A stretch of DNA of 64,000 bases from Candidatus Spongiihabitans sp. (GTDB lineage: Bacteria > Pseudomonadota > Gammaproteobacteria > Arenicellales > Poriferihabitantaceae). Below the pieces are notes generated by a model. The model was not told the origin of the DNA. It did no database searches and saw nothing but the letters and a program-made list of their open reading frames with translations. A program made the translations under genes and the position numbers. The stretch covers positions 2,391,228 to 2,455,227 of the forward strand of contig NZ_OZ250154.1 in NCBI RefSeq assembly GCF_965237845.1. The letters run 5' to 3'. Positions 5,327-24,394 of the stretch are shown here, in pieces (the stretch's first letter is position 1; the number at the start of each line of letters is the position of its first letter).

Positions 5327-5355
5327 TCAGGCCGTATTTTGATTTATGTTTCGAT

Positions 5356-5553
5356 TCATGTAATACGTCTGCACTCGACGAATGTTTGCACCGATTTGCG
5401 ACACACCGGGGACGTATCCCTACCCCTCGGTCTAGAGGGGATGGACCGTAAGTATTCGCAACTCATTTCAAAACACTCGCCGTCAGTGAACGACACCATC
5501 AGAGTTCGGGTCTTGCGATTGAGATTGATTTCGGTGGGAGTGTGTTGGCTCAT
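5356..5553 (-). pseudogene. DUF971-family gene remnant; only about 36 N-terminal residues are intact
   Basis: MSQHTPTEINLNRKTRTLMVSFTDGECFEMSCEYLR resembles the DUF971 N-terminus. The expected VHSPSAEV.GHG continuation is visible only in another frame, broken by stops (VHPL*TEG*GYVPG). Confidence 0.5.
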
Positions 5554-5561
5554 GTTTTCTT

Positions 5562-5980
5562 TTATGTCTTTTTCACCAGTTTTCCAAGTTGATTCATTTT
5601 TCTGTTAAGAAGTCGCCGCTCTTTTAGCTGACACTCCCATATTCGCATTACTTTCCATCCTCTGTTTTTAACTGTGCTGGTTACCAATCTGTCACGTTTC
5701 TTGTTGGCATCTATCTTTCGAATCCAAACTCTCTGTTGCTTTCTGGAACCTCTCCATGTTTCGGACAACCATGCCAGAAACACCCGTCAATAAAAACCGC
5801 AATTTTGCTATTTGGAAATGCAATGTCTGGATTTCCAAAAAACGGATACCTACGCCGCCATCCCGTTAGGTGGTTCTGTTTCAACACTTCAATAAGTTTG
5901 CCTTCGGTTGATTTGTTTCCGGAGGACCAGACACGACTCATAAGCCATGAGCGTTTCTGTTGTGAAAAGACATCACCCAT
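5562..5980 (-). pseudogene. vsr: Very-short-patch repair endonuclease Vsr, split by a 1-nt deletion in an A/T run
   Basis: ORF 5711-5980 carries GNPDIAFPNSKIAVFIDGCFWHGCPKHGEVPESNREF. ORF 5562-5783 continues WIRKIDANKKRDRLVTSTVKNRGWKVMRIWECQL. The frames rejoin if ccaaactc (5724-5731) were ccaaaactc. Confidence 0.8.
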
Positions 5981-7637
5981 TCTTTTTTACATTATCCAAT
6001 CTATACAACAAAAATGAAACCAAACTTAGGATATTGAGACAATCATTTTCAATAAAAAGTTTGTTTAATATTTCTCTAGTTTCTTGAGATTCAGGATTCC
6101 TAAATGCCTGCATCAAACCAACTGAAAGAGATCTTTGACCATGTTGTATATTAATTTCTGTTTCACTGGAAAGTTTAGAGACTTGAAGTTTCGGATAGTT
6201 AGTGATTTCTATTTTTCCTTTTTTCTTTTCATATTTGAAATTAAAAGCCTGATTCATCAAATCTACACCTGACAATTGAAGATTGAGTTCCCTTTTCACT
6301 TTATTGTCGTAAACAACAGTTCCTTCTCTTGCCGCTTCTAAATATTTGCCACTTTTGTAGTCCTCATATAGCCTTTCCTTAATAAGTGGATGCAAGTTTC
6401 TCCAATGATAATAAGGATAAGGGGGTATAAGTTCTTTAAGTTCGGTGAATAATTCAACAGACTTGTCAGATTCTACTTCGGGAAGATCTTCAATAAGTTT
6501 TTTAATAAAAATCTCAAAGTTATTTTTCATATTCTCTGGCATGGATTTTTTCCAATCTTCTATGCCAACAGCACCAAGATTCTGGCTGACCTTTGCAAAT
6601 TTTTCATCTTTACGTTTTTTACGCCAATCCACTTGCACAAACTGAACGCACTGCCCAAGATACTTATGAAGTTCACTCATTTGTAAATGTCCCCAGTTAA
6701 GATTCTGTCTATTGGTGGAAATCACATCCTCAAGAAAATCCTCTATAAAGTCCACTTTTAACCATCCTGTCATATACGAAAAGAAGTGGCTGGATGTGCT
6801 ATCAGCAAATTGATAGGGGGTTTGTACAAGCTTGCCTCGGGCAAACAAAGAAATACCTCTCGAATCAAATCTTGGTGCAATGGGTTTTTCGGGTGTAATA
6901 ATTTTGCCCTGAATTTTGGCAACATGTTCATAATCTGATTCTATATCAGTAAAATCGTCTGGAAAATCCCAAGAAAATTCCTCGCCAAATGCGGAAAAGC
7001 GCATATCATTCGATAACGTTACCGCTTCCCCATCGTTACGACGTATGGTGACGGCAAAATCTTCTTCAAAAATAAAAAATCTCGCTATGCTACTAGCAAG
7101 CAATTCTTCCGAAAAATCAGATGCTCGATTTATATTTGTCAGTGTTATTTTAGTTCCTATGTCATCTCCTTCAACAATTTCATCGACCACTTCCGGGGTC
7201 ATTAGATATTTTCCTTCCGAGGAATTCATTAAATCATTCCAATCCATCGTAAAAATATTTCGCTTCTTTTGCTTAACAGTGTTTATGGTAATTGTCTGAA
7301 CAATCCCAAAAAATGAGAGCTTTCCCAAACCCTTTTTACCAATAACCTCCCGACCTCTATGAGTTATACCCTCTCCATCTTTTCTGCGATTGCGGCCAAT
7401 AATAAGAAATTTGTTATCAATATCATTAAATGACATACCCATACCGTTATCTTTTACAATAATTCTTTTCTCTCCAACATCATGTAACTCCACTTCCACT
7501 CTTGTTGCGTCCGCATCGTATGAATTAGATATTAACTCACTCAAAACCGGCGGCAGGGTTGAATACATCCGAATCCCAAGATGTTCTATAACCTTCGGGT
7601 CAAATGTCATCGTTAATTGTTTGTCGTTTTGAGACAT
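5973..7637 (-). CDS. GHKL (Bergerat-fold, MORC-like) ATPase with a C-terminal Hypoth_Ymh/TIGR02391-like domain
   Basis: N-box ELISNSYDADA, G1 box VKDNGMGM and G2 box GKKGLGKLSFFG. The C-terminus reads YKSGKYLEAAREGTVVYDNKV...GVDLMNQAF...LSVGLMQAFRNPESQ...NILSLVSFLLYRLD. It starts 9 nt after dcm and overlaps vsr by 8 nt. Confidence 0.7.
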   Translation of the reverse strand: MSQNDKQLTMTFDPKVIEHLGIRMYSTLPPVLSELISNSYDADATRVEVELHDVGEKRIIVKDNGMGMSFNDIDNKFLIIGRNRRKDGEGITHRGREVIGKKGLGKLSFFGIVQTITINTVKQKKRNIFTMDWNDLMNSSEGKYLMTPEVVDEIVEGDDIGTKITLTNINRASDFSEELLASSIARFFIFEEDFAVTIRRNDGEAVTLSNDMRFSAFGEEFSWDFPDDFTDIESDYEHVAKIQGKIITPEKPIAPRFDSRGISLFARGKLVQTPYQFADSTSSHFFSYMTGWLKVDFIEDFLEDVISTNRQNLNWGHLQMSELHKYLGQCVQFVQVDWRKKRKDEKFAKVSQNLGAVGIEDWKKSMPENMKNNFEIFIKKLIEDLPEVESDKSVELFTELKELIPPYPYYHWRNLHPLIKERLYEDYKSGKYLEAAREGTVVYDNKVKRELNLQLSGVDLMNQAFNFKYEKKKGKIEITNYPKLQVSKLSSETEINIQHGQRSLSVGLMQAFRNPESQETREILNKLFIENDCLNILSLVSFLLYRLDNVKKNG

Positions 7638-7646
7638 AGAATTGTT

Positions 7647-8690
7647 TCATACTGCACAAATGGACTGTGCTATTCTGTAAGCGAGTTGCGGTGGTACGGC
7701 ATTGCCTATTAGTTTGGAGGCGGCTGTTGAGCTTTCACACACAAAAATATAGTCTTTTTCGAATGTCTGTAATGTCGCGCCCTCTCTTAGAGACAATCCT
7801 CTATCCTCTTCCGGGTGGGTAAAACGGCCGTTGGAAATCCCGTTGAATCTTGTTGTAATGGTCGAAGAAGGTTTATTCCATCTCAACCTTCCGTAAACAT
7901 CTCTAAAAGAATCATCTTTGCCTTTGTAAGCCTTCAGTTGAAGTTCGGGGTCGTCTTTCCATGCCTTTCTCGTTCCGCCATTTTTGGGGGTCAGTTTAAC
8001 GCGTCTCAGATTTTTTTCGGATAAAGATGCAACTGTATCCATGAAATCAGTATCATCTATATGCCCGGCTCGAAGGGCGGGAAAACCATTATGGGTTCCG
8101 ATAAATTCTGCCAGAATCGATTCTTTTTCGGGTTTGGGAAAATTGATCGATTCGTTCATCCTGGAAGCAATCAAAACAAATCTCTTCCTGCTCTGAGGTA
8201 CCCCATAATCCTTGGCGTTCAAAATATTTTCGGTAATCACATGTCCTTTTTCTTTAAGTTTTTCGCAAAAATTATCAAGTCCGCTTTCCGCTTCTTTTCT
8301 TTTCATTCCGGGAACATTTTCTATAATAACATAGCCCGGATTATAGTAATAGACAAAGCGCCAAAAATCTTGAAGTAGCCCCTTGCTTCCTTCAGATGAT
8401 CTTCTATTGGTATTCAAAACGCTCCAATACTGGCAGGGACTACATCCTATAAAAACTAAAGAATCATCATTGCGTTTAACCCCGCACTTTTTTTCCAGAA
8501 ACGTACGGGGAAGTTTCTTTATATCTTTCAGAAAAAATCTAGTCTCAGGATGATTTTTCTCATATGTCTCCTTGCAATCTTCATCTATATCTATACCCGC
8601 AACAACTTTCACCCCGGCCATCTTCATGCCCTGCGTCATTCCGCCCGCACCGCAGAAAAAATCGACGGCTTTCAACAACTTGGCTGTCAT
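7647..8690 (-). CDS. dcm: DNA (cytosine-5)-methyltransferase
   Basis: Motif I FCGAGGMTQG, motif IV GCSPCQYWS, motif VI ENVPGM, motif VIII QSRKRFVLIA and motif X GNAVPPQLA. Confidence 0.93.
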   Translation of the reverse strand: MTAKLLKAVDFFCGAGGMTQGMKMAGVKVVAGIDIDEDCKETYEKNHPETRFFLKDIKKLPRTFLEKKCGVKRNDDSLVFIGCSPCQYWSVLNTNRRSSEGSKGLLQDFWRFVYYYNPGYVIIENVPGMKRKEAESGLDNFCEKLKEKGHVITENILNAKDYGVPQSRKRFVLIASRMNESINFPKPEKESILAEFIGTHNGFPALRAGHIDDTDFMDTVASLSEKNLRRVKLTPKNGGTRKAWKDDPELQLKAYKGKDDSFRDVYGRLRWNKPSSTITTRFNGISNGRFTHPEEDRGLSLREGATLQTFEKDYIFVCESSTAASKLIGNAVPPQLAYRIAQSICAV

Positions 8691-11035
8691 TTGTCACCGC
8701 CCAGTCTTTCAATTAGTGTTACCACATGAGCCGCAATTGCGGATGAGGCCAAACGTAAAACCTTGTCTTCGTCATAGTCTTCTTGTCTGCCGGAGTTTTC
8801 TTTTTCAGCATCATGGATCAGTTTTTTATACATCGCCAAAGTGAGAATACCAACACCGAATCTAAAACGGTGTCTAATAATCTCCCTTTTATCTTCGTCC
8901 CTTTCTCTTAAAACCAGATACAAAAGATATTTGTTGCCTTGGTTCACATATACTGTCAACTCCTCTCCCACAGAAACATGGCCGCCCGATTCTTCTGTAT
9001 AATTGTAGTTATCCCAATCTTCCATTTTCACCCATACAATGTCAGGAAAATTAAGGGAACGCTCCTTTTTCTTCCTTGTATTGGTTTTATCTCCGCCAGA
9101 ATTTGTGGTTGTTTTCTCTTCATTGGAAATTTTTATTGTTACATCGAAAAGTAAAGGAGTGGTTCTCTCTGGATTAGAATCATTGAAGCCAAACTGAACA
9201 GAAATTTCATCCTTCACTTTGGCATTTTCTGGAGGGCTTACCTTTATGCGAAATTTTCCATTACGCAGAGAACCTGAATTTGGTAGTACATCAGGCATTG
9301 GATGCAAAAATTTGCCCTGGTCGGCTTCTCTTATTAAATAGTCGTTTTGAGCATCCGTCTTACATACAATCCATCTGTAAGAATTGATGGGAATACTTTT
9401 TACGTCACCTTCCTCCAAGTTTGTTGGCTTTAAATATGTTGGAAACATTTTTCCTTCATATTTGTCCTCGCCTCCGGACGTTTGGACCGGCTCAACGACA
9501 ATATCCCCAGCATCAAAAAGCTCTTGAAGGTCGAGATTGTTTTTGACAAGATCGGAAAGGAATTCTTTACTGGATTCTTTCTCTATCTGTTCGCTCTGAC
9601 GACGTTTTTTTATTTCTCGCGCATATTTTCTGAGTTCTCTGTCCTCTCTCAGGGAATCTATAACGATTTCCTTTAATTCTCTCGTCAATTCTATTTGCGC
9701 CATTCTTTCCCTGTCCGGCTTAAACACGGCGGAGCGTGCCGTGTTGTCCATGGCATTACAGTCAATTTGAACAAGTAGATGGTTTCTTAGATCATCAAGT
9801 TGTGCCTTGCGCAATAAACTTGCTCTTTCCTTGGCTTGGGATTGACCGTTGATCGTGTAAAACATTCTGTAAGAGTAGTTGCGCAAATACTCCTTCATTT
9901 TGTCCAAGACAAAATAGGATATGCGAATAGTCCCCAAACTGCTATTTTCGGAATTCTCAGTCACGCCTTCAAAGTCGACTCGGCTTGTTTCGCCTTCTTC
10001 ATCATCAGATTTAAGCACTGTCTTCATACCGGAAAAAGTTCTTGGGGCTATACCTTCCGCCCTAAGGCCAACTTTTGTGGGCTTGGCATCAAAATCATAA
10101 AAACGAAGAGGCAAAGCACAGTCAATCAAACTTGTCGTGAGTGCGTCATACAATCCCAAATCAACATTACGGGAACCGGGGCCTATGTCATATTCATATA
10201 GTTTTACAACGCTGCCGCCATCTTTAACAACACCAATGTCCGCCCTGTCGTTGAAAGCTCTAATCTCATCAGCCTCAAAACAGGCAATTTCCCCATTGGG
10301 ACAGAAATACTCAACTACGGGCAGATCCTCCCCCTTGTGCGGACTCCGTACTCTTATTAGAGTCCATCCCCATAGGCCATCCGAATCGTCCAGGTTTCTC
10401 TTCGAGAGAATGAGTTTGTACATTCCACTCCTGATTTCCGCTCGGGTACAAAAAGTTATGGACCCGGTACTACCCATATTAAAACGCCCCTGAACAAATG
10501 GAATGCCGTCCTTGTTCTTCTCTCCGAGAGACAGAAAAGTCTTTTCAAAGTCTCCGTGATTTTGACCTTCACCAAAATCAACTATCGTGTAATTTGGGCA
10601 AGTGTCCCTTTTGGCTTTTCTTTGAATGCCTATCAAAACACTCTTTTCGGCCAATTTTGTCCTTTGCCCTTGACTTAACAGTGTTAATTTTCCTTCTTGA
10701 ACTTCGGGGAAAAAGAGCTTAACCGCTTCGCTCATGCTTTGGGGAACCGCTTCGCTCTCCAAATCCAGCCTCTTCTCCTTCGCCTTCCGCATGAGGATTG
10801 CGTCAATAGAATTAATAATCAGTTCCGCCAACGCACCGACAGGCTCGCTTGTTTGGACACCTACCCTGTCCCAATTCTTTTCAGCACCGCCGTAGGGTTT
10901 CCAATTCTTGTCATCGCTAAACTCGGATCGGCTTTTCAGAATTTCATTGACTTGTTCAGTGGAAAGCGCACGCAGGAAACCCTCCGCCGTTAACTTGGAA
11001 ATTTGGCTATTGGAAAACTTACCTGAATTAGTCAT
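8687..11035 (-). CDS. Large (782 aa) GHKL-like ATPase with about 500 aa of unrecognised C-terminal sequence
   Basis: N-box ALAELIINSIDA, G1 box IVDFGEGQ and G2 box GRFNMGSTGSITF. The rest has no motif I can name. Its stop overlaps the dcm start (ATGA, 8687-8690). Confidence 0.6.
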   Translation of the reverse strand: MTNSGKFSNSQISKLTAEGFLRALSTEQVNEILKSRSEFSDDKNWKPYGGAEKNWDRVGVQTSEPVGALAELIINSIDAILMRKAKEKRLDLESEAVPQSMSEAVKLFFPEVQEGKLTLLSQGQRTKLAEKSVLIGIQRKAKRDTCPNYTIVDFGEGQNHGDFEKTFLSLGEKNKDGIPFVQGRFNMGSTGSITFCTRAEIRSGMYKLILSKRNLDDSDGLWGWTLIRVRSPHKGEDLPVVEYFCPNGEIACFEADEIRAFNDRADIGVVKDGGSVVKLYEYDIGPGSRNVDLGLYDALTTSLIDCALPLRFYDFDAKPTKVGLRAEGIAPRTFSGMKTVLKSDDEEGETSRVDFEGVTENSENSSLGTIRISYFVLDKMKEYLRNYSYRMFYTINGQSQAKERASLLRKAQLDDLRNHLLVQIDCNAMDNTARSAVFKPDRERMAQIELTRELKEIVIDSLREDRELRKYAREIKKRRQSEQIEKESSKEFLSDLVKNNLDLQELFDAGDIVVEPVQTSGGEDKYEGKMFPTYLKPTNLEEGDVKSIPINSYRWIVCKTDAQNDYLIREADQGKFLHPMPDVLPNSGSLRNGKFRIKVSPPENAKVKDEISVQFGFNDSNPERTTPLLFDVTIKISNEEKTTTNSGGDKTNTRKKKERSLNFPDIVWVKMEDWDNYNYTEESGGHVSVGEELTVYVNQGNKYLLYLVLRERDEDKREIIRHRFRFGVGILTLAMYKKLIHDAEKENSGRQEDYDEDKVLRLASSAIAAHVVTLIERLGGDK

Positions 11036-14975: not shown

Positions 14976-15711
14976 CTTCAATCCAACTATAACCTTTATT
15001 TTCCAACTCCAATGCCAACGATTTATCGCCAGAACGAATAATTCTTCCTTCTGCAAGCACATGCACAAAATCAGGCACTATGTAGTCGAGCAAGCGTTGA
15101 TAGTGGGTCACCACAATCATGGCGCGATCCTTATTTCTCAATGTATTGATGCCATGCGCCACAATTTTCAACGCATCAATATCCAGCCCGGAATCGGTTT
15201 CATCGAGAACGCTTAAATAAGGTTCCAACAACGCCATTTGCAGAATCTCATTGCGTTTTTTCTCGCCGCCGGAAAAGCCTTCATTGATCGAGCGATATAA
15301 AAACGCCTCGTTCATTTCCACCAGCGCCGCCTTTTCCTTGATCAGTTTAAGAAACTCAACGGCGTTCAACTCCTCATCGCCGCGATGCTTGCGAATGGCG
15401 TTGATGGATGCCTTGAGTAAGTACAGATTCGTAACCCCCGGAATCTCGACCGGATACTGAAAGGCCAGAAAAAGCCCTTCCCGGGCGCGGATTTCCGGCT
15501 CCATTTCGAGCAAATCCCAACCCTTATAGGCAACCGACCCGGCGGTGATTTCGTAGTTATCGCGTCCCGCCAGCACGTTGGCCAAGGTGCTTTTGCCGGA
15601 GCCGTTGGGGCCCATAATCGCATGCACTTCGCCGGCCGCAACCTCCAGACTGATGCCGTTAAGTATGGCCTTGCCGTCCACGCTGGCGTGGAGTTTTTTA
15701 ACTGTAAGCAT
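14965..15711 (-). CDS. sufC: Fe-S cluster assembly ATPase SufC
   Basis: Walker A GPNGSGKST, signature FSGGEKKR and Walker B LSVLDETDSGLD. Confidence 0.95.
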   Translation of the reverse strand: MLTVKKLHASVDGKAILNGISLEVAAGEVHAIMGPNGSGKSTLANVLAGRDNYEITAGSVAYKGWDLLEMEPEIRAREGLFLAFQYPVEIPGVTNLYLLKASINAIRKHRGDEELNAVEFLKLIKEKAALVEMNEAFLYRSINEGFSGGEKKRNEILQMALLEPYLSVLDETDSGLDIDALKIVAHGINTLRNKDRAMIVVTHYQRLLDYIVPDFVHVLAEGRIIRSGDKSLALELENKGYSWIEDAA

Positions 15712-15772
15712 TTATATGACTCAGATTTGATTAAATTATTAAAAGACTTATCATTTTTCAGGGACGACGAGA

Positions 15773-17008
15773 CTAATACATTGGCGTTAAGTTTTTCTGA
15801 ATTCGCATTCTGTATTGCAGATATTCCATTGGCCTGTCGCCTTTTATGCTGTTGCAATTGCCACAAAGCAATTGGAAATTTTCCATGTAATCGCCACCGC
15901 CCTTTGACTTGGGGACAATGTGGTCAAGGTGGAAATTCGGTAAGTCAAACTCTTTTTTACAGCCGTTACATACACCTTCCTGCTCGTCGAAAAGAATCTT
16001 TTTAATTTGCGGTTTTTTCAGTTTGGTTTTGACAATATCGGTTCGCATCGGCGGCTTGTCGGTGGCCAAAAAATCTGTAAATACTTCCTTCTTAACATCA
16101 TCCGATTTCAGCAATCCCTGCGCGGTGGCATCCGTTAATCTATCCCGCACTAAATCCACCGCAACATCGCTCACATCAATGCCAATCCAATTGCGTTGCA
16201 ATCGATGCGCGGCGACGCAGGTGGTCGCACAACCGCAGAATGGATCCAACACCAAGTCGCCTTCGTTGCTGCTGGCTTTGATGATGCGGTCCAACAACGC
16301 CAGCGGTTTTTGCGTGGGGTAGCCGGTGACTTCCGGTTGATTGCCCCTTAATGCGGGTATGTCCCAAATGTCTCTGCAATGCACGTAGCGATAAGTTCCG
16401 CCATCGTCGGAAAGAATCTCGATGTTTTTAAATCCATATTTATGCGATAAATACGATTTTTCTTTTTGCAAATTAAATACATACTCTCTCCCCTTGGAGT
16501 AAAAGAAAACAACATCGTGTTTTCGCGAGAAATGTCGTTTACTCACCCCGCCCGTTTTATACGCCCAAGCAATTTCATTTCGAAAATTATGCTTGCCAAA
16601 AACTTCATCCAACATAATTTTCAGGTAATGGCCGGCAGTCGGGTCGCAATGCAAATATAAACTGCCTGTTTCTTTCAGCACCCGATGCATTTCAATCATC
16701 CGCTGTGCCATGAAGGTCAAATACGCCTTCATGGGCAAGCCGTGTATTTCTCCGGCGCTGCCAATAAACCTAAAGAGCCGGGGATATTTATCAAGGAACG
16801 CTTCCAAGCGTATGTCAATATCCTCGCTCCAAACCCAAATATCATCGAAACCAGCCTCTTTTTTGCCGGCTGGCGTGCCAATCGGGACGCGATAAATCCG
16901 CTTGGAATTAAACGGCGGGTCAAGGTAAATCAAATCCACCGTGCGACTATTCATACCCATAAGGACGGAAAGATTGTCGCCGACATATATTTTATTTTGG
17001 CTTTGCAT
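15773..17008 (-). CDS. Beta-class N6A/N4C DNA methyltransferase fused to a C-terminal HNH endonuclease domain
   Basis: Motif IV DLIYLDPPFN lies upstream of motif I VLDPFCGCATT, which is the beta-class order. The C-terminus reads CNGC...HLDHIVPKSKGGGDYMENFQLLCGNCNSIKGDR (HNH). The start is set at the MQSQNKIYVGDN ATG (17008), 19 nt after the sufB stop. The track's 17125 start overlaps sufB. Confidence 0.85.
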   Translation of the reverse strand: MQSQNKIYVGDNLSVLMGMNSRTVDLIYLDPPFNSKRIYRVPIGTPAGKKEAGFDDIWVWSEDIDIRLEAFLDKYPRLFRFIGSAGEIHGLPMKAYLTFMAQRMIEMHRVLKETGSLYLHCDPTAGHYLKIMLDEVFGKHNFRNEIAWAYKTGGVSKRHFSRKHDVVFFYSKGREYVFNLQKEKSYLSHKYGFKNIEILSDDGGTYRYVHCRDIWDIPALRGNQPEVTGYPTQKPLALLDRIIKASSNEGDLVLDPFCGCATTCVAAHRLQRNWIGIDVSDVAVDLVRDRLTDATAQGLLKSDDVKKEVFTDFLATDKPPMRTDIVKTKLKKPQIKKILFDEQEGVCNGCKKEFDLPNFHLDHIVPKSKGGGDYMENFQLLCGNCNSIKGDRPMEYLQYRMRIQKNLTPMY

Positions 17009-17027
17009 CGTGGTTCTTCCGGCAACG

Positions 17028-18479
17028 CTATCCAACCGACCCTTCCAAACTAATCCCCAACAGTTTCTGCGCTTCAACCGCAAACTCCATGGGCAATTCC
17101 CTGAAAACGTCCTTGCAGAATCCATTCACGATCATGGAGATGGCATCTTCTTCCGACAGGCCACGTTGACGGCAGTAAAATAATTGGTCTTCGCCGATGC
17201 GCGAGGTGGTGGCTTCGTGCTCAACCACTGCGGTTGGATTTTTAACCTCCATATAAGGAAAAGTATGGGCTCCGCATTTATCGCCCATCAACAATGAATC
17301 GCACTGCGAATAATTACGCGCATTTTCCGCGCCCTTAACCACCTTGACTAATCCGCGATAAGAATTTTGTCCATGACCGGCGGAAATGCCTTTTGAAATA
17401 ATCGTGCTTTTTGCGTTCTTGCCGATATGCACCATCTTGGTGCCGGTATCCGCTTGCTGATAATTATTGGTCAGCGCCACCGAATAAAATTCGCCGATGG
17501 AGTTGTCCCCTTCGAGCAATACGCTGGGGTATTTCCAGGTGATCGCCGAGCCGGTTTCCACTTGAGTCCATGAAATTTTGGCGTTTTCCCCACGGCATGC
17601 GCCACGTTTGGTCACAAAGTTATAAATACCGCCCTTGCCGTTTTCATCCCCCGGATACCAGTTCTGTATGGTGGAGTATTTGATCTCGGCGCCGTTCAAG
17701 GCGATTAGCTCCACCACCGCCGCATGTAATTGATTTTCATCTCGTTGCGGCGCTGTGCAGCCTTCAAGATAACTCACATAACTATCTTCATCGGCGATGA
17801 TCAGGGTTCGTTCAAACTGCCCGGTATTCATCGCATTGATTCGAAAGTAGGTTGACAATTCCATTGGGCAACGAACGCCCTTTGGTATATAAACAAATGA
17901 GCCTTCGCTGAATACTGCGGAATTTAGCGCGGCATAATAGTTATCGCCCGATGGCACCACAGAACCGAGATATTGCTTCACCAATTCAGGATAATCTTTC
18001 AGGGCTTCCGATAACGGACAAAAAATAACCCCTGACTCGGACAGAGTCTTTTTAAATGTTGTGACTACCGACACACTATCAAATACCGCATCCACCGCAA
18101 CCTTGACCCCGGCCAGCATTTTTTGTTCGTCGAGGGGAATACCCAGCTTTTCGTAGGTCTCGAGCAGCTTCGGATCGACTTCATCCAGGCTGTCCAGCAG
18201 CTGTTTCTGCTTGGGCGCGGAATAATAGCTAATTTCCTGAAATTCCACGGGCGGGTAATTCAAATGCGGCCACTCTGGAGATTCCATTTCAAGCCAATGC
18301 CGATAGGCGCCTAACCGCCATTCCAGCAAAAATTCCGGCTCCTCTTTTTTGGCGGAGATAATACGAATTACATCTTCGTTTAGCCCGGGAGGCAGCGTAT
18401 CCGCATCAATATCGGTAATAAAGCCTTCTTTATAGTCTCGCTGAACTAAAGAAGCGATTTCTTGTTCTGTACTGGTCAT
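17028..18479 (-). CDS. sufB: Fe-S cluster assembly scaffold SufB
   Basis: 483 aa with highly conserved SufB blocks ([57 protein letters not shown]). Confidence 0.95.
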
Positions 18480-19129: not shown

Positions 19130-19302
19130 GCCTAAGGGGCAGACGGTCTCTTGCCGCTTGTGGCATAGTCGCCCAGTGGAGTTAATCCGCAGCACCAACC
19201 GCGAGTTGTCATGACCCATGATTTAATATTGCTACATAATGATAAAGACTTTAGCAAAATAGCAAGCGTTAAATCAGAACTCAAACAACAAGCGGCGCAA
19301 TA
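19130..19302 (+). pseudogene. PIN-domain (VapC-like) toxin C-terminal remnant
   Basis: ...VMTHDLILLHNDKDFSKIASVKSEL ends at TAG 19300-19302. An upstream piece, VELIRSTNREL, is in another frame. There is no intact N-terminus or antitoxin. Confidence 0.35.
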
Positions 19303-19498
19303 GAACTTAACCACGCGAATTTAATCCAGCACTCAAACGCACATTAAGCGCATTAGCGCCAAAAGCCTTAAAACTCAAGACCTCAGGGTTTCATCCGCAG
19401 GCGGTTTTGTAACTACCTATAAAACTGAATTTGAATATATTTTCTACTAAAAAATTAACGATATTTTCTTACAAGTTATTTGAATACTTAGTAAATTA

Positions 19499-22400
19499 AT
19501 GAAACTTGAAATCGCATTTTTAGATATTGAGGTTGGCGCCACCAGCAACAAAATAGATGATTTAGGTTATTTGTCTGAAAAATCAGCACTTGAAACGAGT
19601 TCTGTAAGTCAAATAAAAGACCGTTGTTTGCGTGAAGGAATTAGGTTTATTTGTGGACACAATTTTATTGAACACGATAAAAAATTTCTGGCAAAAACTA
19701 GTTTTAATCCAGTTTTAGAACAGATTAACATTATCGATACTTTGTATCTTTCAATGCTTTTATTTACTACTAAACGCACACACAAACTCGATAAACCATA
19801 TAAAAACAATCAAATCAATATTGAAAATCAGCCGTTAGGAGATGCTGCTCAAACAAAGGCATTATTTGAATTATTAGATAACGAGTTTGATAAACTATCA
19901 GTAAAAAAACAACAAATATTCTATCAATTATTAAAAAATGATAAATATTTTTCAGGTTTTTTTGATTTTAAAAAAGTAGCCAATAAAGAGATTGATATAT
20001 ACGAACAGATAAAAAAGCATATTGTTGTCAACAGTAAAGACTACAAAGAAAATGAAATAAATCATCCAGTAGAGATTGCTTTTATTATTTCTTATTTAAT
20101 GTCAAATGACAAAGGGGCTATATCATCAATTCTCTTAATCAAATATCCTGAAGTTGTAAAGTTATTAAAGCAACTTACTTTTGATAAAGACAAGGTAAAT
20201 ATTGAAAAATTTACCAAAGATGAATTTGGTGTTGATACTTTCAGGGAGTTTGATAAAAATGAGGTTGATGCTTATCAATTTTCCAGAGATGAACTTGCAC
20301 TTACCAACCCGACAGAGATTGAAAAAATATCACAAAAGGACATTATAGAAAGTGCGATTGATACCGATTCATTGCTAGCAATATTGCCAACGGGTGGCGG
20401 TAAAACCCTTGCTTTTCAAATCCCCGCTTTACTTAAAGCACAAAAATATAAAGGATTGAGTGTCGTTGTTTCCCCGCTTCAAGCCTTAATGAAAAACCAA
20501 ATAGATAGTTTCAGGCGTAAAAATAATAATTTTACGGTGCTGGCTATTAGTGGATATTTAAGCCCTATTGAACGCATGAACGCCATTACTGAAGTGGAAA
20601 ATGGGACTGCTGATATTTTGTATTTGGCACCTGAATCATTACGCTCTAATTCTATTTTTAACGCCCTTAAAAAACGCATTATTGAGCGCTTTATTATTGA
20701 CGAAGCACATTGCTTTTCATCTTGGGGGCATGATTTTAGGCACGATTACTATTTTATTGCCGAGACGATTAAGGAATTGGAACAATCCAGTTTTCAACCC
20801 CTTATTCCCGTGTCTTGCTTTACCGCAACAGCAAAGCCAGAGGTTATCAAAGATATAAAAGATTATTTCAAAGAAAAATTAGATATTACACTAAATAAGT
20901 TTATTGCCTCTGTTGAGCGTTATAACTTGCAATATAGCGTGATTGAAAGCAAAACAGCAGAGGATAAATACGAACAATTAATTAAAATTTTACTAGAGCG
21001 CGACAAAGCGAGCAAAAATCCGACCATTATTTATATTCCTCAAAACGCCAGACAATGCAGAGAACTGAGTGAAAAATTGCAAAATGATGAGCGGCTCACT
21101 GAGCTTGATTTGGTCATAGAACCTTTTTATGCCAAACTTGATGATGACAAGGAAGAGGGCAGAAGAGATAAAAACGCCAGAGGAAAATTTGAAATATTAG
21201 CGGATTTTATTGACAATAAAATTGATATTGTCATTGCAACCACTGCTTTTGGGATGGGGATTGATAAGGCGGATATTCAAACCATTATCCATTATCAGCA
21301 ATCGGATAGTTTGGAGTCTTATTTGCAAGAGTCGGGTCGTGGGGCGCGCGATGAAAATTTAATCGCCAAATGTATTGTCTTATATTCAAAAGAAGATTTT
21401 GATCGCTCGTTTACGCAGCTTAACCGCTCAAAAGTTGATATTGCCGAGATTAAAAGAATTGTCAAGGCGCTCAAAGGTTATGGAAACGACAAACTTAATT
21501 TATCGCCAAAAGACATTTCCAGAAAAATAGGGGTGGATACAGAAGACAGCAAAATTGATTATGACCTGATTATTAAAACTGCACTGTTGGAATTAGAACA
21601 ACACAATATTATTAAACGCGGTAGAGATGGTTATAAAATATTTGCAACTTCGCTTGAAAAACAAGAGCAGAAAAACATGTCTTTTGTGCATGAAGTGTTA
21701 GACCCTAAACAACAGCAAGAACCCTATATTGAGCTATATAAAGATATGATCTTGGTGATGCAAAATGTTATCCAACGGTCTAAATTAGACGCGATTGAAG
21801 TTGATGATTTGTCAGATATTGTTGGTGTGGGAAAACCAAGAATTTTTGATGTGCTATATCAGTTGCAAAAAGACGGATTATTGAAATTTAATAATGACAT
21901 TAGCCTCCATATTAAAAAATCAGTTCAAAAAGAGTTTGGGGATCATTTTGAGATGGAACAGAAGATATTTGACGGAATAAAAAATACTCCGGTTTACGAG
22001 AAAAGCATCAATTTACGAAGCCTGAATGATGAGAATAGCAATGATGTAATATTATTTAAGCAAATTATTCAAAGTTGGGGGCATTTATCAAGACTTAAAA
22101 ACAATATTTTTACCGCACGATTTAAAAACGATTTTTGCTTGTTTGAATTACAAGATGAACAAAAACTAGATAAACTCGTAAAAGCCAGAAAAGAATTATC
22201 ACTGTTTATTATTGAGCAATTACTGAACATATTAGGCACAGACATAGCCAAAGAGATTGAATTTTCCAGCAATAAAATAAAAGTGGATTATCACTCACCA
22301 ACACTGACCATAGAGGCGTTTCATCATACTTTTGTTTATTTGCACGATATGTTGAAAAGTTTTGAATTGCGTCGGGGTCGGTTGATTTATCATCACACCC

Positions 22401-23353
22401 TTAAATTGGATTTACAAAAAAAGATAAGGGAGAGAATGCCTTACCAAAACAGCCATTATGATAGTGGATTAAAGCATTATTATGAGCGAAAAATCGAAGC
22501 CATTCATATTCAAATTGCATTTTTAGAACGGTTACTAGCACAAGGTTGGCATGACACAAAAGACTTTGTCAAAAATTATTTTTCGATGGAATACGGCGCG
22601 TTTAAACAAATTTATCATTTTAATGAAAAAGAGATAAAACGACCCGTTACTAAAGAGAAATATCAACAAATATTAGAAAACCTAAACGCTGAACAAAAAC
22701 AAATTTTTAACGATACTTCTTCGCAAGCCATTATGGTTTTAGCCGGTCCAGGTAGCGGTAAAACCAAAACTTTAGTGCATAAAATTGCTTCGTTAATTAC
22801 GATTGAGAACAACAAGGCAGAATATTTTTTGATGCTCGCGCATTCAAGGGTTGCGGTTGCAGATTTTAGAGACAAACTCAAAAAACTCATTGGCAACCAA
22901 GTTTATACGGTGCGTATTCATACTTTTCATTCTTTTGCTTGCTCCCTATTAGGAAAAAATATTAGTGATGCTAATGAGTTACAAAACGTGCTACAAACAA
23001 CCGCCCAAATGCTCAATAACAATAAAATAACGATGCCGTTTATTAGTATGTTGGTCGTGGATGAATATCAGGATGTTGGCAAGCAAAGTTATGAATTTAT
23101 TAAAGCTATTTACACCAATATGGGCGTGAGCAAGACTGATAAAAAAATTATTGCGGTGGGCGATGATGACCAATGTATTAAAAACTATGGTGGTGATAAG
23201 GCTGACATTAAATATATCAAAGAATTTAAGCAATATTTTGGCAAAGACATCGCAGACTCGAGTAAATTTTCATCCTATCAGTTGCTAAATAATTATCGAA
23301 GTGGGGCTAATATTGTTGATTTTTTTACCCAATTTAGCAGTGTTATCGACTAA
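19499..23353 (+). CDS. Multidomain protein: DnaQ-like 3'-5' exonuclease + RecQ-family SF2 helicase + N-terminal half of a UvrD/PcrA-type SF1 helicase. It ends at an in-frame TAA.
   Basis: Exonuclease motifs IAFLDIEV and CGHNFIEHDKKFL. RecQ motifs LPTGGGKTLAFQIPAL, FIIDEAHCFSSWGHDFR, ATTAFGMGIDKADIQ and QESGRGARD. UvrD motifs LAGPGSGKTKT, VVDEYQDV, AVGDDDQCI and NNYRSG. Confidence 0.8.
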   Translation: MKLEIAFLDIEVGATSNKIDDLGYLSEKSALETSSVSQIKDRCLREGIRFICGHNFIEHDKKFLAKTSFNPVLEQINIIDTLYLSMLLFTTKRTHKLDKPYKNNQINIENQPLGDAAQTKALFELLDNEFDKLSVKKQQIFYQLLKNDKYFSGFFDFKKVANKEIDIYEQIKKHIVVNSKDYKENEINHPVEIAFIISYLMSNDKGAISSILLIKYPEVVKLLKQLTFDKDKVNIEKFTKDEFGVDTFREFDKNEVDAYQFSRDELALTNPTEIEKISQKDIIESAIDTDSLLAILPTGGGKTLAFQIPALLKAQKYKGLSVVVSPLQALMKNQIDSFRRKNNNFTVLAISGYLSPIERMNAITEVENGTADILYLAPESLRSNSIFNALKKRIIERFIIDEAHCFSSWGHDFRHDYYFIAETIKELEQSSFQPLIPVSCFTATAKPEVIKDIKDYFKEKLDITLNKFIASVERYNLQYSVIESKTAEDKYEQLIKILLERDKASKNPTIIYIPQNARQCRELSEKLQNDERLTELDLVIEPFYAKLDDDKEEGRRDKNARGKFEILADFIDNKIDIVIATTAFGMGIDKADIQTIIHYQQSDSLESYLQESGRGARDENLIAKCIVLYSKEDFDRSFTQLNRSKVDIAEIKRIVKALKGYGNDKLNLSPKDISRKIGVDTEDSKIDYDLIIKTALLELEQHNIIKRGRDGYKIFATSLEKQEQKNMSFVHEVLDPKQQQEPYIELYKDMILVMQNVIQRSKLDAIEVDDLSDIVGVGKPRIFDVLYQLQKDGLLKFNNDISLHIKKSVQKEFGDHFEMEQKIFDGIKNTPVYEKSINLRSLNDENSNDVILFKQIIQSWGHLSRLKNNIFTARFKNDFCLFELQDEQKLDKLVKARKELSLFIIEQLLNILGTDIAKEIEFSSNKIKVDYHSPTLTIEAFHHTFVYLHDMLKSFELRRGRLIYHHTLKLDLQKKIRERMPYQNSHYDSGLKHYYERKIEAIHIQIAFLERLLAQGWHDTKDFVKNYFSMEYGAFKQIYHFNEKEIKRPVTKEKYQQILENLNAEQKQIFNDTSSQAIMVLAGPGSGKTKTLVHKIASLITIENNKAEYFLMLAHSRVAVADFRDKLKKLIGNQVYTVRIHTFHSFACSLLGKNISDANELQNVLQTTAQMLNNNKITMPFISMLVVDEYQDVGKQSYEFIKAIYTNMGVSKTDKKIIAVGDDDQCIKNYGGDKADIKYIKEFKQYFGKDIADSSKFSSYQLLNNYRSGANIVDFFTQFSSVID

Positions 23354-23401
23354 CGCTTAAAGACCGATAAATTAGTAGCACATAGACAACAGCAGGGAAA
23401 A

Positions 23402-24394
23402 GTGAGTTTAATTCGTTATCAAAATAGTGATTATTACACCAATATACTCAATAGTGTCAAAGCCAATACTTCTAATAATATTGCCATCTTAGCAAGAAAA
23501 AATAAGGAGGTTTTATCAATCTATTCCATGCTAGTTTCAGACAATATAAAAGCGCGTTATATTGCGGATAATAATAGTTTTAGATTGGGTAATTTAGTTG
23601 AATTAACAGATGTTTTACAAAACTGGCGGGAGACAGAAGACTTTGAAAAAAGCAGAAATAATTCAGACACTATTTATGGAAAATCAAACAATAACGCATT
23701 AAAAAATGCGGTGCTTGATAAATTTGAAGATGAGTATCAAGCGGAAATTAAAAAAAGCCAGCAGCATTTTATTGGCGTATTTGAGCAGTATTTACATAAA
23801 ATCACTTTTGATGAATTTGAACTTGGCAAGAGTAAAGTTACTGTCTCCACCATACACAAAGCCAAAGGAAAAGAGTGGGATGAAGTTTATATATGTGCAC
23901 AAGATGACTTCATAAGCACCAACCCACAACAGGCGCAATACGATAAACGCTTAGCTTATGTTGCCATTACTCGAGCAAAAAACAGCCTTTATATTCATTC
24001 TAAAATAACACTATTTGATGGTTTTATCGATTATTTTGATGAGCACAATATCTGCAATACTCAATTTGAACCGCTTAAAACTATTGTCCTGTTAATGGGT
24101 TTGGATGATATAGTATTGACCTATTCATACTCTCAAGAAGGCATTGCAAAAAGTTCTCCTCTGGCTGGCGAAGTTGTGGATGTCATTGACAAACAACAAT
24201 ATATAACTATTGCTAAAGATAATAATCAAATTGCTTCATTGTCACAAAAAATGATTGAAAAGATACGGGATGAAAATGGCTACAGGTTAAACAATAAGGC
24301 GGAAATTGAAAATGTAGTTGAATGGGTGAATAAAGAGGATGGCAAAAAATACAAACAGGTATTATGTAAAATTTATTTGTCAAAAGAACATTAA
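23402..24394 (+). CDS. C-terminal half of the same UvrD/PcrA-type helicase plus about 130 aa of extra C-terminal domain
   Basis: It is in the same reading frame as 19499-23353, separated by one TAA and 16 sense codons. Motifs VSTIHKAKGKEWDEVYI and RLAYVAITRAKNSLYIH are UvrD motifs V/VI. Confidence 0.8.
   Translation: MSLIRYQNSDYYTNILNSVKANTSNNIAILARKNKEVLSIYSMLVSDNIKARYIADNNSFRLGNLVELTDVLQNWRETEDFEKSRNNSDTIYGKSNNNALKNAVLDKFEDEYQAEIKKSQQHFIGVFEQYLHKITFDEFELGKSKVTVSTIHKAKGKEWDEVYICAQDDFISTNPQQAQYDKRLAYVAITRAKNSLYIHSKITLFDGFIDYFDEHNICNTQFEPLKTIVLLMGLDDIVLTYSYSQEGIAKSSPLAGEVVDVIDKQQYITIAKDNNQIASLSQKMIEKIRDENGYRLNNKAEIENVVEWVNKEDGKKYKQVLCKIYLSKEH

What the first reader, a model, noticed from the sequence alone, without database searches (positions are those of the whole stretch)
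19499..24394. Giant three-engine protein (DnaQ-like exonuclease + RecQ SF2 helicase + UvrD SF1 helicase) on an AT-rich island
A strongly AT-rich block (about 19.3-24.4 kb) lies between iscR and coaE and encodes essentially one product. From N- to C-terminus it contains:
- A DEDD-type exonuclease (DIE; GHNFIEHDKKFL; the third motif looks degenerate, QPLGDAAQT).
- A complete RecQ core (GGGKT, DEAH, the arginine finger QESGRGARD).
- A roughly 400-aa linker.
- A complete UvrD/PcrA core (GSGKT, DEYQD, NYRS, TIHKAKGKEW, ITRAK).
- A roughly 130-aa extra tail.

Two helicases of different superfamilies and (canonically) opposite structural classes, fused to a nuclease, is not a housekeeping architecture. 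The solitary AT-rich context next to a toxin remnant suggests an acquired anti-mobile-element or DNA-processing function.
Basis: partly seen in the sequence, partly recalled or inferred. Interest (0 to 1): 0.75.

Follow-up and report, generated by a model that had tools for sequence, protein, structure and literature searches.

The report
Broken exonuclease–RecQ–UvrD giant helicase gene
The AT-rich block holds a horizontally acquired gene for a 1,631-residue protein that joins a DNA-end-trimming nuclease to two different DNA-unwinding motors; the family is widespread but unstudied, and this copy is cut short by one premature stop codon.

Summary
Window 19499-24394 (+) is one 1,631-codon reading frame, at GC 0.28-0.39 against 0.44-0.49 in the flanks. 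HMMs confirm a RecQ-family SF2 core and a UvrD-type SF1 core.

The N-terminal exonuclease is invisible to Pfam. A confident structure model, weak profile matches and invariant D9/E11/D60/D115 support it. The usual catalytic His is an invariant Asn.

The 400-residue linker models as about four winged-helix-like modules plus a helical bundle. The tail matches nothing.

The frame is interrupted at codon 1285 (CAA to TAA). The syntenic gene in Ca. Spongiihabitans thiooxidans is intact. There is no sign of decay after the stop, so the lesion is very recent or an error.

Full-length relatives (about 1,600 aa) occur in at least 581 species genomes across many phyla, on some plasmids and in a Tn7-like element, but in no phage. 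No neighbour is conserved, so this is a patchy, mobile, stand-alone gene and not clade-wide housekeeping.

Its role is not shown. Defence-type genes among immediate neighbours are suggestive, and the wider neighbourhoods are mostly housekeeping. I found no paper on this architecture. I rate it a new variant of the helicase-nuclease kind.

The parts
19499..24394 (+). Whole gene: one frame of 1,631 sense codons plus the terminal TAA, interrupted by one in-frame TAA (a pseudogene or split gene in this copy)
   Evidence: The intact 1,631-aa orthologue lies at L008:10001-14896.
19499..19891 (+). aa 1-131: divergent DEDD (DnaQ/PolB-exo-like) 3'-5' exonuclease fold. Exo I is D9-x-E11, Exo II is H54-N55...D60, and Exo III is N110-x-P-L-x-D115, with Asn in place of the usual His/Tyr.
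   Evidence: AF2 model with pLDDT 88. Foldseek PDB hits are all DEDD exonuclease domains: S. aureus DinG E 8.8e-4, Pol II, RNase T, epsilon, RNase D. 23 of 76 family members touch PF03104 at E<=1. The profile aligns the three Exo motifs to PDB 9l8b at E 0.022. The residues are invariant in 77-78 sequences.
19892..20314 (+). aa 132-272: all-helical domain between the exonuclease and RecQ; no named family
   Evidence: Secondary structure of the model. No Pfam or PDB sequence hit. Partly covered by PADLOC model C3a193 'poss. alt. Cas3', residues 163-686.
20324..21448 (+). aa 276-650: RecQ-family SF2 helicase core (motif 0, PTGGGKT, DEAHC..WGHDFR, TATA, ATTAFGMGIDK, QESGRGARD)
   Evidence: Pfam DEAD and Helicase_C. 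TIGR00614 scores 235.9, above the 219.8 cutoff. The closest solved structures are BLM 4.5e-41, bacterial RecQ about 1e-38 and WRN 1e-33.
21449..22648 (+). aa 651-1050: linker, modelled as about four winged-helix-like units followed by a helical bundle. No RecQ Zn-binding, RQC or HRDC domain detected.
   Evidence: AF2 model with pLDDT 85 and pTM 0.55. Only weak matches, all to multi-WH proteins: RPC62 E 0.033, CodY, SmtB. MarR E 0.02. Weak TrmB and HTH_Crp_2 hits. No RQC, HRDC or RecQ_Zn_bind.
22649..23350 (+). aa 1051-1284: UvrD/PcrA-type SF1A helicase, N-terminal half (Q motif, GPGSGKT, DEYQD, GDDDQ, NYRS)
   Evidence: Pfam UvrD-helicase 4e-24 and AAA_19 2e-17. The closest solved structures are UvrD1 2e-19, UvrD 4e-19 and PcrA.
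23351..23353 (+). Premature stop TAA at codon 1285. Relatives have CAA (Gln).
23354..23998 (+). aa 1286-1500: UvrD C-terminal half (motif V TIHKAKGKEW, motif VI YVAITRAK), downstream of the stop
   Evidence: Pfam UvrD_C 5.9e-17 and UvrD_C_2 1.5e-10.
23999..24391 (+). aa 1501-1631: family-specific C-terminal tail of unknown fold
   Evidence: Conserved in the family. No Pfam, PDB or PADLOC match.
23402..24394 (+). Mechanical ORF B (GTG start, 330 aa). It could be made separately only if translation restarts.
   Evidence: No evidence of expression.

Best explanation
Identity (shown): this is a freshly inactivated copy (Gln1285 to stop) of a horizontally acquired, stand-alone gene. It belongs to a widespread, uncharacterised family of about 1,600-residue proteins. 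The domain order is DEDD-type exonuclease, helical domain, RecQ-family SF2 motor, winged-helix-rich linker, UvrD-type SF1A motor, C-terminal tail. Also shown: conservation of all helicase motifs and of the four exonuclease acidic residues, the patchy distribution, the lack of any partner gene, and the nonsense codon.

Mechanism (inferred from what the parent families do):
- The intact protein is an ATP-driven DNA-unwinding and 3'-end-degrading machine.
- Both motors are expected to walk 3'->5' on single-stranded DNA. Tethered together on the two antiparallel strands of a fork, gap or end, they would pull the duplex apart from both sides.
- The winged-helix array would hold duplex DNA.
- The N-terminal domain would trim the released 3' end.

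Role (inferred more weakly): it is an accessory function directed at foreign or aberrant DNA, such as plasmid or phage replication intermediates, rather than core repair.

Status in this genome: the SF1 motor is cut after motif IV, so the full machine is not made.
For: Architecture and motifs:
-.

Exonuclease:
- Fold and residues.

Linker:
-.

Family:
- 114 of the 120 listed hits exceed 1,500 aa.
- At least 581 species genomes hold a relative, and each of the 80 best loci matches the query over most of its length.
- 77 of 84 loci have an intact ORF, median length 1,612 aa.
- The N-terminal module gives 960 hits at 50% clustering. About half of the best 150 are 1,560-1,880 aa.

Stand-alone gene:
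- No neighbour family is shared by more than 7 of 84 loci.
- 166 and 200 different Pfam families occur among 147 and 149 neighbours.

Mobility:
- It lies beside Tn7-type transposition genes (TnsB, an AAA_22 ATPase, TniQ/TnsD), read here as cargo of a Tn7-like element, in Methylotenera.
- It lies beside a type I R-M system in Sulfurimonas gotlandica.
- It lies between panB and panC next to an IS3 element.
- It is on plasmids of Aliarcobacter, Bacteroides, Nostoc and Thiothrix.
- It is absent from phage genomes.
- Gene GC differs from the flanks, lower in 53 of 67 loci and 14 points lower here.

Defence-type immediate neighbours:
-.

Inactivation:
- The window has TAA where L008, L001 and P0001 have CAA.
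- dN/dS is 0.27 upstream and 0.26 downstream of the stop.
- 205 of 210 family-conserved columns are retained.
Against: - No experiment or paper ties this family to any function.
- Second and third neighbours are mostly housekeeping genes, so there is no clear defence-island signal.
- No PADLOC model matches beyond the generic helicase cores.
- In the Campylobacter ureolyticus clade the gene sits in conserved synteny, which looks vertical.
- The gene persists in small-genome symbionts, which would fit a maintenance role.
- The exonuclease lacks the canonical His/Tyr, so activity is unproven.
- The polarity and cooperation of the two motors are extrapolated from distant relatives.
- The TAA allele could not be confirmed in any independent assembly.
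Confidence: 0.45

Rival explanations
1. Same enzyme, different role. It is an accessory genome-maintenance helicase-nuclease: a bacterial WRN-like exo-RecQ unit coupled to a Rep/UvrD-like accessory motor. It would process stalled or reversed forks, replication-transcription conflicts or gaps. It would spread by horizontal transfer as many repair genes do.
For: - Purifying selection, with dN/dS 0.27.
- Strong full-length conservation across phyla.
- Mostly housekeeping neighbourhoods.
- Apparently vertical synteny in a Campylobacter clade.
- Presence in reduced symbiont genomes such as the Catillopecten gill symbiont and Thioglobus.
- Position next to parAB/rep on an Aliarcobacter plasmid and near ssb and par genes on a Bacteroides plasmid.
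- The closest solved relatives are all repair helicases.
Against:
- Its composition is foreign to the host.
- It is carried as transposon and plasmid cargo.
- It is readily lost: three closely related Spongiihabitans-type genomes carry three different lesions, namely a nonsense codon, a frameshift, and an IS fragment about 15 bp upstream of the ATG.
- Defence-type genes occur among its immediate neighbours.
Confidence: 0.33
2. The stop codon is a sequencing or assembly error, or a minority allele. The organism then makes the full-length protein.
For: - There is no excess of non-synonymous change after the stop.
- Only one window-specific change falls at a family-conserved column.
- The orthologue in L008 is intact.
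- The break in relative L001 lies in an A6/A7 homopolymer in a 3x long-read contig, so errors of this sort do exist in these data.
Against: - The lesion is a C-to-T substitution, not a homopolymer indel.
- Lesions of other kinds occur in both close relatives.
- No independent assembly could be found to test the allele.
Confidence: 0.2
3. The truncated 1,284-residue product remains useful. It keeps the complete exonuclease, RecQ motor and winged-helix linker (a WRN-like enzyme) and loses only the SF1 motor. The C-terminal piece might be made from GTG 23402.
For: - The stop falls after UvrD motif IV, leaving aa 1-1050 untouched.
- A GTG preceded by AGGGAAAA exists 49 nt downstream.
- Broken multi-ORF versions exist elsewhere, such as Nostoc pNPUN02.
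Against: - 77 of 84 loci keep one ORF.
- The fragmented versions look like decay, with IS elements nearby.
- Half an SF1 core attached to the protein is more likely to misfold than to be neutral.
- There are no expression data.
Confidence: 0.15
4. The N-terminal domain is not a nuclease. It would be a DEDD-fold 3'-end or metal-binding sensor that regulates the motors.
For: - The canonical general-base His/Tyr of Exo III is replaced by an invariant Asn.
- Sequence HMMs score below threshold.
- From general knowledge, degenerate DEDD domains without activity are known.
Against: - All four metal-binding acidic residues, plus H54, N55, D80, H95 and K99, are invariant across phyla. This is what an active site looks like.
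Confidence: 0.2

Closest known systems
WRN (human Werner syndrome protein): N-terminal 3'-5' exonuclease plus RecQ helicase
   Same: It has the same order of a DEDD-fold exonuclease followed by a RecQ-family motor in one chain. The RecQ core matches WRN structures at about 1e-33.
   Different: From general knowledge, the WRN exonuclease is of the RNase D / DEDDy type and WRN carries RQC and HRDC domains. Here Exo III has Asn, no RQC, Zn or HRDC domain is detected, and a whole second SF1 helicase is attached.
Firmicute DinG (S. aureus / B. subtilis): DEDD exonuclease fused to an SF2 helicase
   Same: It is the best structural match of the N-terminal model (8zef, E 8.8e-4). It is also a bacterial single-chain exonuclease-helicase. 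B. subtilis DinG degrades ssDNA 3'->5' (PMC12525004, abstract).
   Different: The DinG motor is XPD-like, not RecQ. It has no second motor, no winged-helix array, and 15% identity over the aligned region.
RecBCD / AddAB / AdnAB dual-motor helicase-nucleases
   Same: They combine two helicase motors and a nuclease in one machine that processes DNA ends. RecBCD also destroys foreign linear DNA.
   Different: Those are multi-subunit, use SF1 motors only (of opposite polarity in RecBCD), and use RecB-type PD-(D/E)XK nucleases. Here one chain holds SF2 plus SF1A motors of the same expected polarity and a DEDD nuclease. No Chi-type recognition is known.
RecQ-like and UvrD-like helicases of defence systems (DpdF, PsyrT/RqlH, GajB)
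   Same: They are the best PADLOC scores for the two cores: DpdF 256 bits, PsyrT 218 bits, GajB 98 bits.
   Different: Only the generic cores match. NCBIfam DpdF scores 179 bits against a cutoff of 550. No dpd, GajA or PsyrA partner is present. RqlH has a ComF-type C-terminal domain (PMC3378886) that is absent here.
Mycobacterial UvrD2 (UvrD motor plus HRDC of RecQ type)
   Same: It is another bacterial protein that mixes UvrD-family and RecQ-family parts (PMC3378886, introduction).
   Different: UvrD2 borrows only an HRDC domain. Here two complete motors are fused.

Membership tests
RecQ family (NCBIfam TIGR00614 recQ_fam) | Whole-protein score above the curated cutoff, with helicase motifs 0-VI present | tested here: met
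   235.9 bits against a cutoff of 219.8. The motifs are located.
Canonical bacterial RecQ (TIGR01389 / PRK11057 equivalogs) | Equivalog score, and RecQ-C (Zn-binding plus RQC winged helix) and HRDC domains | tested here: not met
   244 bits against a cutoff of 640, and 186 against 1015. No RecQ_Zn_bind, RQC or HRDC Pfam hit. Only one conserved Cys follows motif VI.
UvrD/PcrA/Rep SF1A helicases | Pfam UvrD-helicase and UvrD_C above gathering score, with motifs Q, I, II, III, IV, V and VI | tested here: met
   86.2 bits against a gathering score of 23, and 62.5 against 25.6. The motifs are located.
UvrD, PcrA, Rep, HelD/HelIV equivalogs | NCBIfam equivalog cutoffs | tested here: not met
   51-85 bits against cutoffs of 543-1,144.
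DEDD (DnaQ-like) 3'-5' exonuclease superfamily | RNase H-like fold of the DEDD exonucleases | tested here: met
   pLDDT 88. The listed Foldseek matches are almost all proteins that carry a DEDD-type 3'-5' exonuclease domain.
DEDD (DnaQ-like) 3'-5' exonuclease superfamily | Four conserved acidic residues in Exo I, II and III | tested here: met
   D9, E11, D60 and D115 are invariant in 77-78 sequences. They align to the Exo motifs of PDB 9l8b.
DEDD (DnaQ-like) 3'-5' exonuclease superfamily | Fifth residue His (DEDDh) or Tyr (DEDDy) in Exo III | tested here: not met
   An invariant N110 sits at the His position. Position 111 is Q or N.
DEDD (DnaQ-like) 3'-5' exonuclease superfamily | Significant match to a curated exonuclease HMM | tested here: not met
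   No hit for the window protein. The family gives only sub-threshold PF03104 hits, best 1.9e-4.
DEDD (DnaQ-like) 3'-5' exonuclease superfamily | Exonuclease activity | not testable with these tools
   This needs biochemistry.
Dpd system helicase DpdF | NCBIfam NF041063 cutoff, and location in a dpdA-K cluster | tested here: not met
   178.9 bits against a cutoff of 550. The neighbours are IscR, SufB, CoaE and MutT.
Gabija (GajA + GajB) | An adjacent GajA OLD-family nuclease partner | tested here: not met
   No such neighbour exists here or as a conserved neighbour in 84 loci.
PsyrTA / RqlHI | RecQ-like core with a ComF-type C-terminal domain, and a PsyrA partner gene | tested here: not met
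   The PADLOC PsyrT match covers only model positions 25-432 of 689. There is no partner gene.
Any named anti-phage defence system | A full-length match to a defence-system model, or demonstrated protection | tested here: not met
   PADLOC v2.0.0 matches only the helicase cores. There are no hits for the N-terminal part, the linker or the tail. Protection itself cannot be tested here.

The most novel reading that the evidence does not exclude
The family is a previously unrecognised single-gene immune or anti-plasmid system. One polypeptide carrying two 3'->5' motors of different superfamilies and a non-canonical 'DEDD-N' exonuclease would recognise replication or entry intermediates of foreign DNA through its winged-helix array. 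It would then unwind and degrade them without any partner protein.
Probability: 0.3. Interest if true: 0.75.

Novelty: new variant of a known kind. Interest (0 to 1): 0.5.

Why it matters
Helicase-nuclease machines such as RecBCD, AddAB, WRN, DinG and Cas3 are central to repair and to immunity. Here a conserved single-chain design combines an SF2 RecQ motor, an SF1A UvrD motor and a DEDD-fold nuclease. It occurs in hundreds of species, including human- and animal-associated Campylobacter, Helicobacter and Bacteroides. Genome annotation labels it only 'RecQ family helicase'.

If the two motors do cooperate on one substrate, this would be a compact model for motor coupling, and possibly a new defence or plasmid-control function.

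For this genome the practical message is smaller. The sponge-symbiont lineage acquired the gene from a low-GC donor and is now losing it.

Tried and rejected
- Sequence detection of the N-terminal domain failed. Pfam at E<=10, phmmer against PDB and a 31-sequence profile against PDB gave nothing relevant. Only the structure model and a broader profile helped.
- The tail (aa 1490-1631) gave only chance-level hits in profile-versus-PDB and per-member Pfam scans.
- The linker has no significant Foldseek match. 'Winged-helix array' is a reading of the model's secondary structure plus weak hits.
- I searched 84 loci for a conserved partner gene and found none. A class-I SAM methyltransferase directly upstream is confined to the Campylobacter ureolyticus clade and to Sulfurimonas/Sulfuricurvum. 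I rejected it as a general partner.
- Fic neighbours occur in at least three lineages, on either side of the gene. I read them as co-travellers, not partners.
- Flanking repeats or att sites, tRNA genes, Rfam families and promoter or terminator scans gave nothing above chance.
- My first dN/dS estimate for the part after the stop (1.6) was an artefact. A gap column had shifted the reading frame. The corrected values are 0.26 downstream and 0.27 upstream, so the 'relaxed selection' claim is withdrawn.
- I could not find the TAA allele elsewhere. The pattern scan of JGI metagenomes found nothing, and the exact 1,284-aa product is not on record.
- Five literature searches found no description of a RecQ-UvrD fusion.
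Full report
**Observation**

Window 19499-24394 on the + strand is one reading frame of 1,631 sense codons, ending in TAA at 24392-24394. GC is 0.28-0.39 across it and 0.44-0.49 on either side. This is the deepest trough in the 64-kb window. The neighbours are SufB and IscR upstream on the minus strand. CoaE (plus strand), MutT and ArgJ lie downstream.

The frame is not open, however. A TAA at 23351-23353 replaces codon 1285, leaving ORFs of 1,284 aa and, from GTG 23402, 330 aa.

**Domain anatomy**

- **Helicase cores.** Pfam finds DEAD (279-452, 2.9e-34), Helicase_C (490-617), UvrD-helicase (from 1062, 4e-24) and UvrD_C (5.9e-17).
- **RecQ membership.** NCBIfam places the first motor in the RecQ family: TIGR00614 scores 235.9 bits against a cutoff of 219.8. 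It falls far below the equivalog cutoffs for RecQ, DpdF, UvrD, PcrA and Rep.
- **Closest solved structures.** For the SF2 core these are BLM, bacterial RecQ, RECQ1/5 and WRN, at 1e-33 to 4.5e-41. For the SF1 core they are UvrD1, UvrD, PcrA and Rep, down to 2e-19.
- **Missing RecQ accessories.** No RecQ Zn-binding, RQC or HRDC domain is detected.

**The N-terminal exonuclease**

The N-terminal 270 residues give no significant Pfam or PDB sequence hit, even as a profile. Other evidence supports the call:

- An AlphaFold2 model built on 31 homologues is confident (pLDDT 88, pTM 0.80). It shows an alpha/beta domain (about 1-131) followed by an all-helical domain.
- Its Foldseek matches in the PDB are almost all proteins that carry a DEDD-type 3'-5' exonuclease domain. 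They include S. aureus DinG (E 8.8e-4), E. coli Pol II, RNase T, Pol III epsilon, RNase D and family A/B polymerases.
- With a broader 76-sequence set, 23 members touch PF03104 (PolB exonuclease) at E<=1.
- The profile aligns to a 189-residue DEDD-type exonuclease (9l8b, E 0.022). The alignment pairs FxDxE with Exo I, GHNxxxxD with Exo II and NxPLxDA with Exo III.
- D9, E11, H54, N55, D60, D80, H95, K99, N110, P112 and D115 are invariant or nearly so in 77-78 sequences from many phyla.

The 'degenerate' third motif is a family-wide substitution of the usual His by Asn.

**Linker and tail**

The 400-residue linker models at pLDDT 85 (pTM 0.55) as repeated helix-helix-helix-strand-strand units followed by long helices. 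It has no significant structural match. The weak ones are multi-winged-helix proteins and winged-helix repressors. I therefore describe it, with caution, as a winged-helix array plus a helical bundle. The tail has no recognisable relatives.

**The stop codon**

The window is 90-95% identical in DNA to a contig of Candidatus Spongiihabitans thiooxidans (Arenicellales, a sponge symbiont) over the syntenic region. It is 98.4% identical to an ENA metagenome contig.

- The Spongiihabitans copy is an intact 1,631-aa ORF with CAA at codon 1285.
- The ENA contig also has CAA. It carries an extra A in an A6 run at codon about 1333, in a 3x long-read assembly.
- The Spongiihabitans copy has a degenerate IS30-like fragment inserted about 15 bp upstream of its ATG.
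- dN/dS between window and orthologue is 0.27 upstream and 0.26 downstream of the stop. An earlier value of 1.6 was a frame artefact and is withdrawn.
- The window copy keeps 205 of 210 family-conserved columns. Four of the five differences are shared with the intact orthologue.

The nonsense change is therefore very recent, or an error. I could not find the allele in other assemblies.

**The family**

A protein search returned 120 listed hits. Of these, 114 exceed 1,500 aa, and the full-length ones carry the same Pfam set. They come from Thioglobus/SUP05, a Catillopecten gill symbiont, Sulfurimonas, Sulfurospirillum, Arcobacter, Campylobacter, Helicobacter and Methylophilaceae, at 41-85% identity.

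In the 80 best loci the match spans most of the query, at 31-33% identity. These extend to Bacteroidota, Clostridia, Verrucomicrobiota, Lentisphaerota and others. Of the 84 loci, 77 have an intact ORF with a median length of 1,612 aa.

The N-terminal module alone retrieves 960 clusters at 50% identity. About half of the best 150 are 1,560-1,880 aa and the rest have scattered fragment lengths. That module is therefore a signature of this architecture. All named members are annotated only as 'RecQ family ATP-dependent DNA helicase'.

**Genomic context**

No neighbour is conserved. The largest neighbour cluster covers 7 of 84 loci and is a generic ABC ATPase. The 147 immediate neighbours fall into 166 Pfam families, and the 149 next neighbours into 200, mostly housekeeping.

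Immediate neighbours include Fic/SoFic (5), HNH (3), type I and II methyltransferases, AbiEii, IetA and a DRT reverse transcriptase.

Individual cases point to mobility:
- It lies beside Tn7-type transposition genes (TnsB, an AAA_22 ATPase, TniQ/TnsD), read here as cargo of a Tn7-like element, in Methylotenera.
- A position beside a type I R-M system and an MTase-HNH gene in Sulfurimonas gotlandica.
- An insertion between panB and panC next to an IS3 element.
- Plasmids of Aliarcobacter (next to parAB), Bacteroides, Nostoc (one intact copy, one fragmented) and Thiothrix (near Cas6 and a WYL gene).

No phage genome holds a full-length copy. Gene GC is below the flanks in 53 of 67 loci and occasionally well above. 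The Spongiihabitans locus, at -14 points, is the extreme case. No att-like repeats, tRNA or RNA elements flank the gene here.

Only two species representatives have a relative above 60% identity. The nearest relatives belong to other orders and phyla that share a sulfur-oxidising marine lifestyle.

**How it most likely works**

- **Shown:** two complete helicase motor cores, a DEDD-fold domain with all four metal-binding acids, a long structured linker, and conservation of the whole arrangement.
- **Inferred from the parent families (established knowledge):** RecQ and UvrD/PcrA/Rep both translocate 3'->5' on ssDNA, and DEDD nucleases remove nucleotides from 3' ends. Two such motors joined in one chain cannot both track the same strand productively unless they work in tandem. 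On opposite strands they would move apart, or reel both strands in, opening a fork, gap or end. The exonuclease would be placed to digest a released 3' end, as in WRN or Firmicute DinG. The winged-helix array is a plausible duplex clamp.
- **Biological role:** I put an anti-foreign-DNA role slightly ahead of accessory genome maintenance (about 0.45 against 0.33). The reasons are patchiness, mobility, foreign composition, ease of loss and some defence-type neighbours. The lack of a clear defence-island signal and the apparently vertical Campylobacter clade argue the other way.

**Comparison with known systems**

The protein works like WRN or DinG (exonuclease plus SF2 helicase). At the level of 'two motors plus a nuclease', it works like RecBCD, AddAB or AdnAB. 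It is not a member of any of them:
- The exonuclease subtype differs and RQC/HRDC are absent.
- The nuclease is not RecB-type.
- The motors are of two superfamilies in one chain.

It is not DpdF, GajB or PsyrT, because scores fall below cutoffs and no partner genes are present. Five full-text searches found no paper on a RecQ-UvrD fusion. The nearest published cases of RecQ/UvrD domain mixing are mycobacterial RqlH and UvrD2 (PMC3378886).

**Verdict**

The finding is real, correctly located, and largely correctly dissected. It is a broken copy of an uncharacterised but common three-module helicase-nuclease, acquired horizontally. I rate it a new variant of a known kind with interest 0.5. The family deserves experiments. 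This particular locus is a decaying copy in an uncultured symbiont, and its function remains inferred.

Noticed in passing
window 5973-8690 (- strand): A second low-GC block (GC 0.35-0.41) holds what looks like a type II restriction-modification pair. One gene is a C5-cytosine DNA methyltransferase (7647-8690, PADLOC MTase_II 3.7e-91). The adjacent ORF is REase_II-like (5973-7637, 2.1e-27). The next ORF, 8687-11035 (782 aa), has no PADLOC hit.
   Followed up: partly
window 15773-17125 (- strand): A 450-aa ORF combines an N4/N6 DNA methyltransferase with a C-terminal HNH domain of the IscB/Cas9d type. Window 15711-17029 has no counterpart in the otherwise syntenic Ca. Spongiihabitans thiooxidans contig, so it is a strain-specific insertion next to sufB.
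   Followed up: partly
window 19211-19303 (+); L008 8683-8775: A 30-aa ORF (MTHDLILLHNDKDFSKIASV...) looks by eye like the C-terminal end of a PIN/VapC toxin. It is conserved in the relative but was not tested with any model.
   Followed up: no
L008 8955-9988: In Ca. Spongiihabitans thiooxidans, a degenerate, frameshifted IS30-like transposase fragment of about 1.03 kb sits about 15 bp upstream of the helicase start codon. It is absent from the window and from L001.
   Followed up: partly
L001 around 6560-6600 (codon about 1333 of the gene): The 98.4%-identical ENA contig has an A7 run where the window and L008 have A6, which splits its gene into 1,335 and 288 aa. The contig is a 3x long-read assembly, so this may be an error and not a second independent pseudogene.
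   Followed up: partly
L005 7245-8000; L010 6556-7290; L014 2957-3757; L003 5914-7659; L011 8742-9896: A class-I SAM-dependent methyltransferase lies directly upstream of the helicase gene and on the same strand. In Campylobacter ureolyticus relatives it is 245-267 aa. In Sulfurimonas gotlandica it is 581 aa and fused to an HNH_4 domain, with a related ORF in Sulfuricurvum. It may be a clade-specific partner.
   Followed up: partly
L009 5689-6588; L034 1314-2384; L038 8780-9850; L063 15723-16727: Fic-domain genes (matching PADLOC SoFic/mad2 models) lie next to the helicase gene in a gammaproteobacterial MAG, two Bacteroidales and a Clostridiales genome. They sit on either side of the gene.
   Followed up: partly
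window protein residues 163-686 (window 19985-21556): PADLOC model C3a193 ('possible alternative Cas3') aligns from inside the helical domain through the RecQ core (4e-37). That helical domain may therefore be shared with a CRISPR-associated RecQ-like family. A Thiothrix plasmid homologue lies about 4 kb from Cas6 and a WYL gene.
   Followed up: no
L090 (Nostoc punctiforme pNPUN02) 4965-9983 and L091 (pNPUN01) 4731-9758: The same strain carries one intact 1,675-aa homologue next to an IS701 on one plasmid. On another plasmid a copy is broken into three ORFs next to an ISNCY transposase. This shows that decay of the gene recurs elsewhere.
   Followed up: partly
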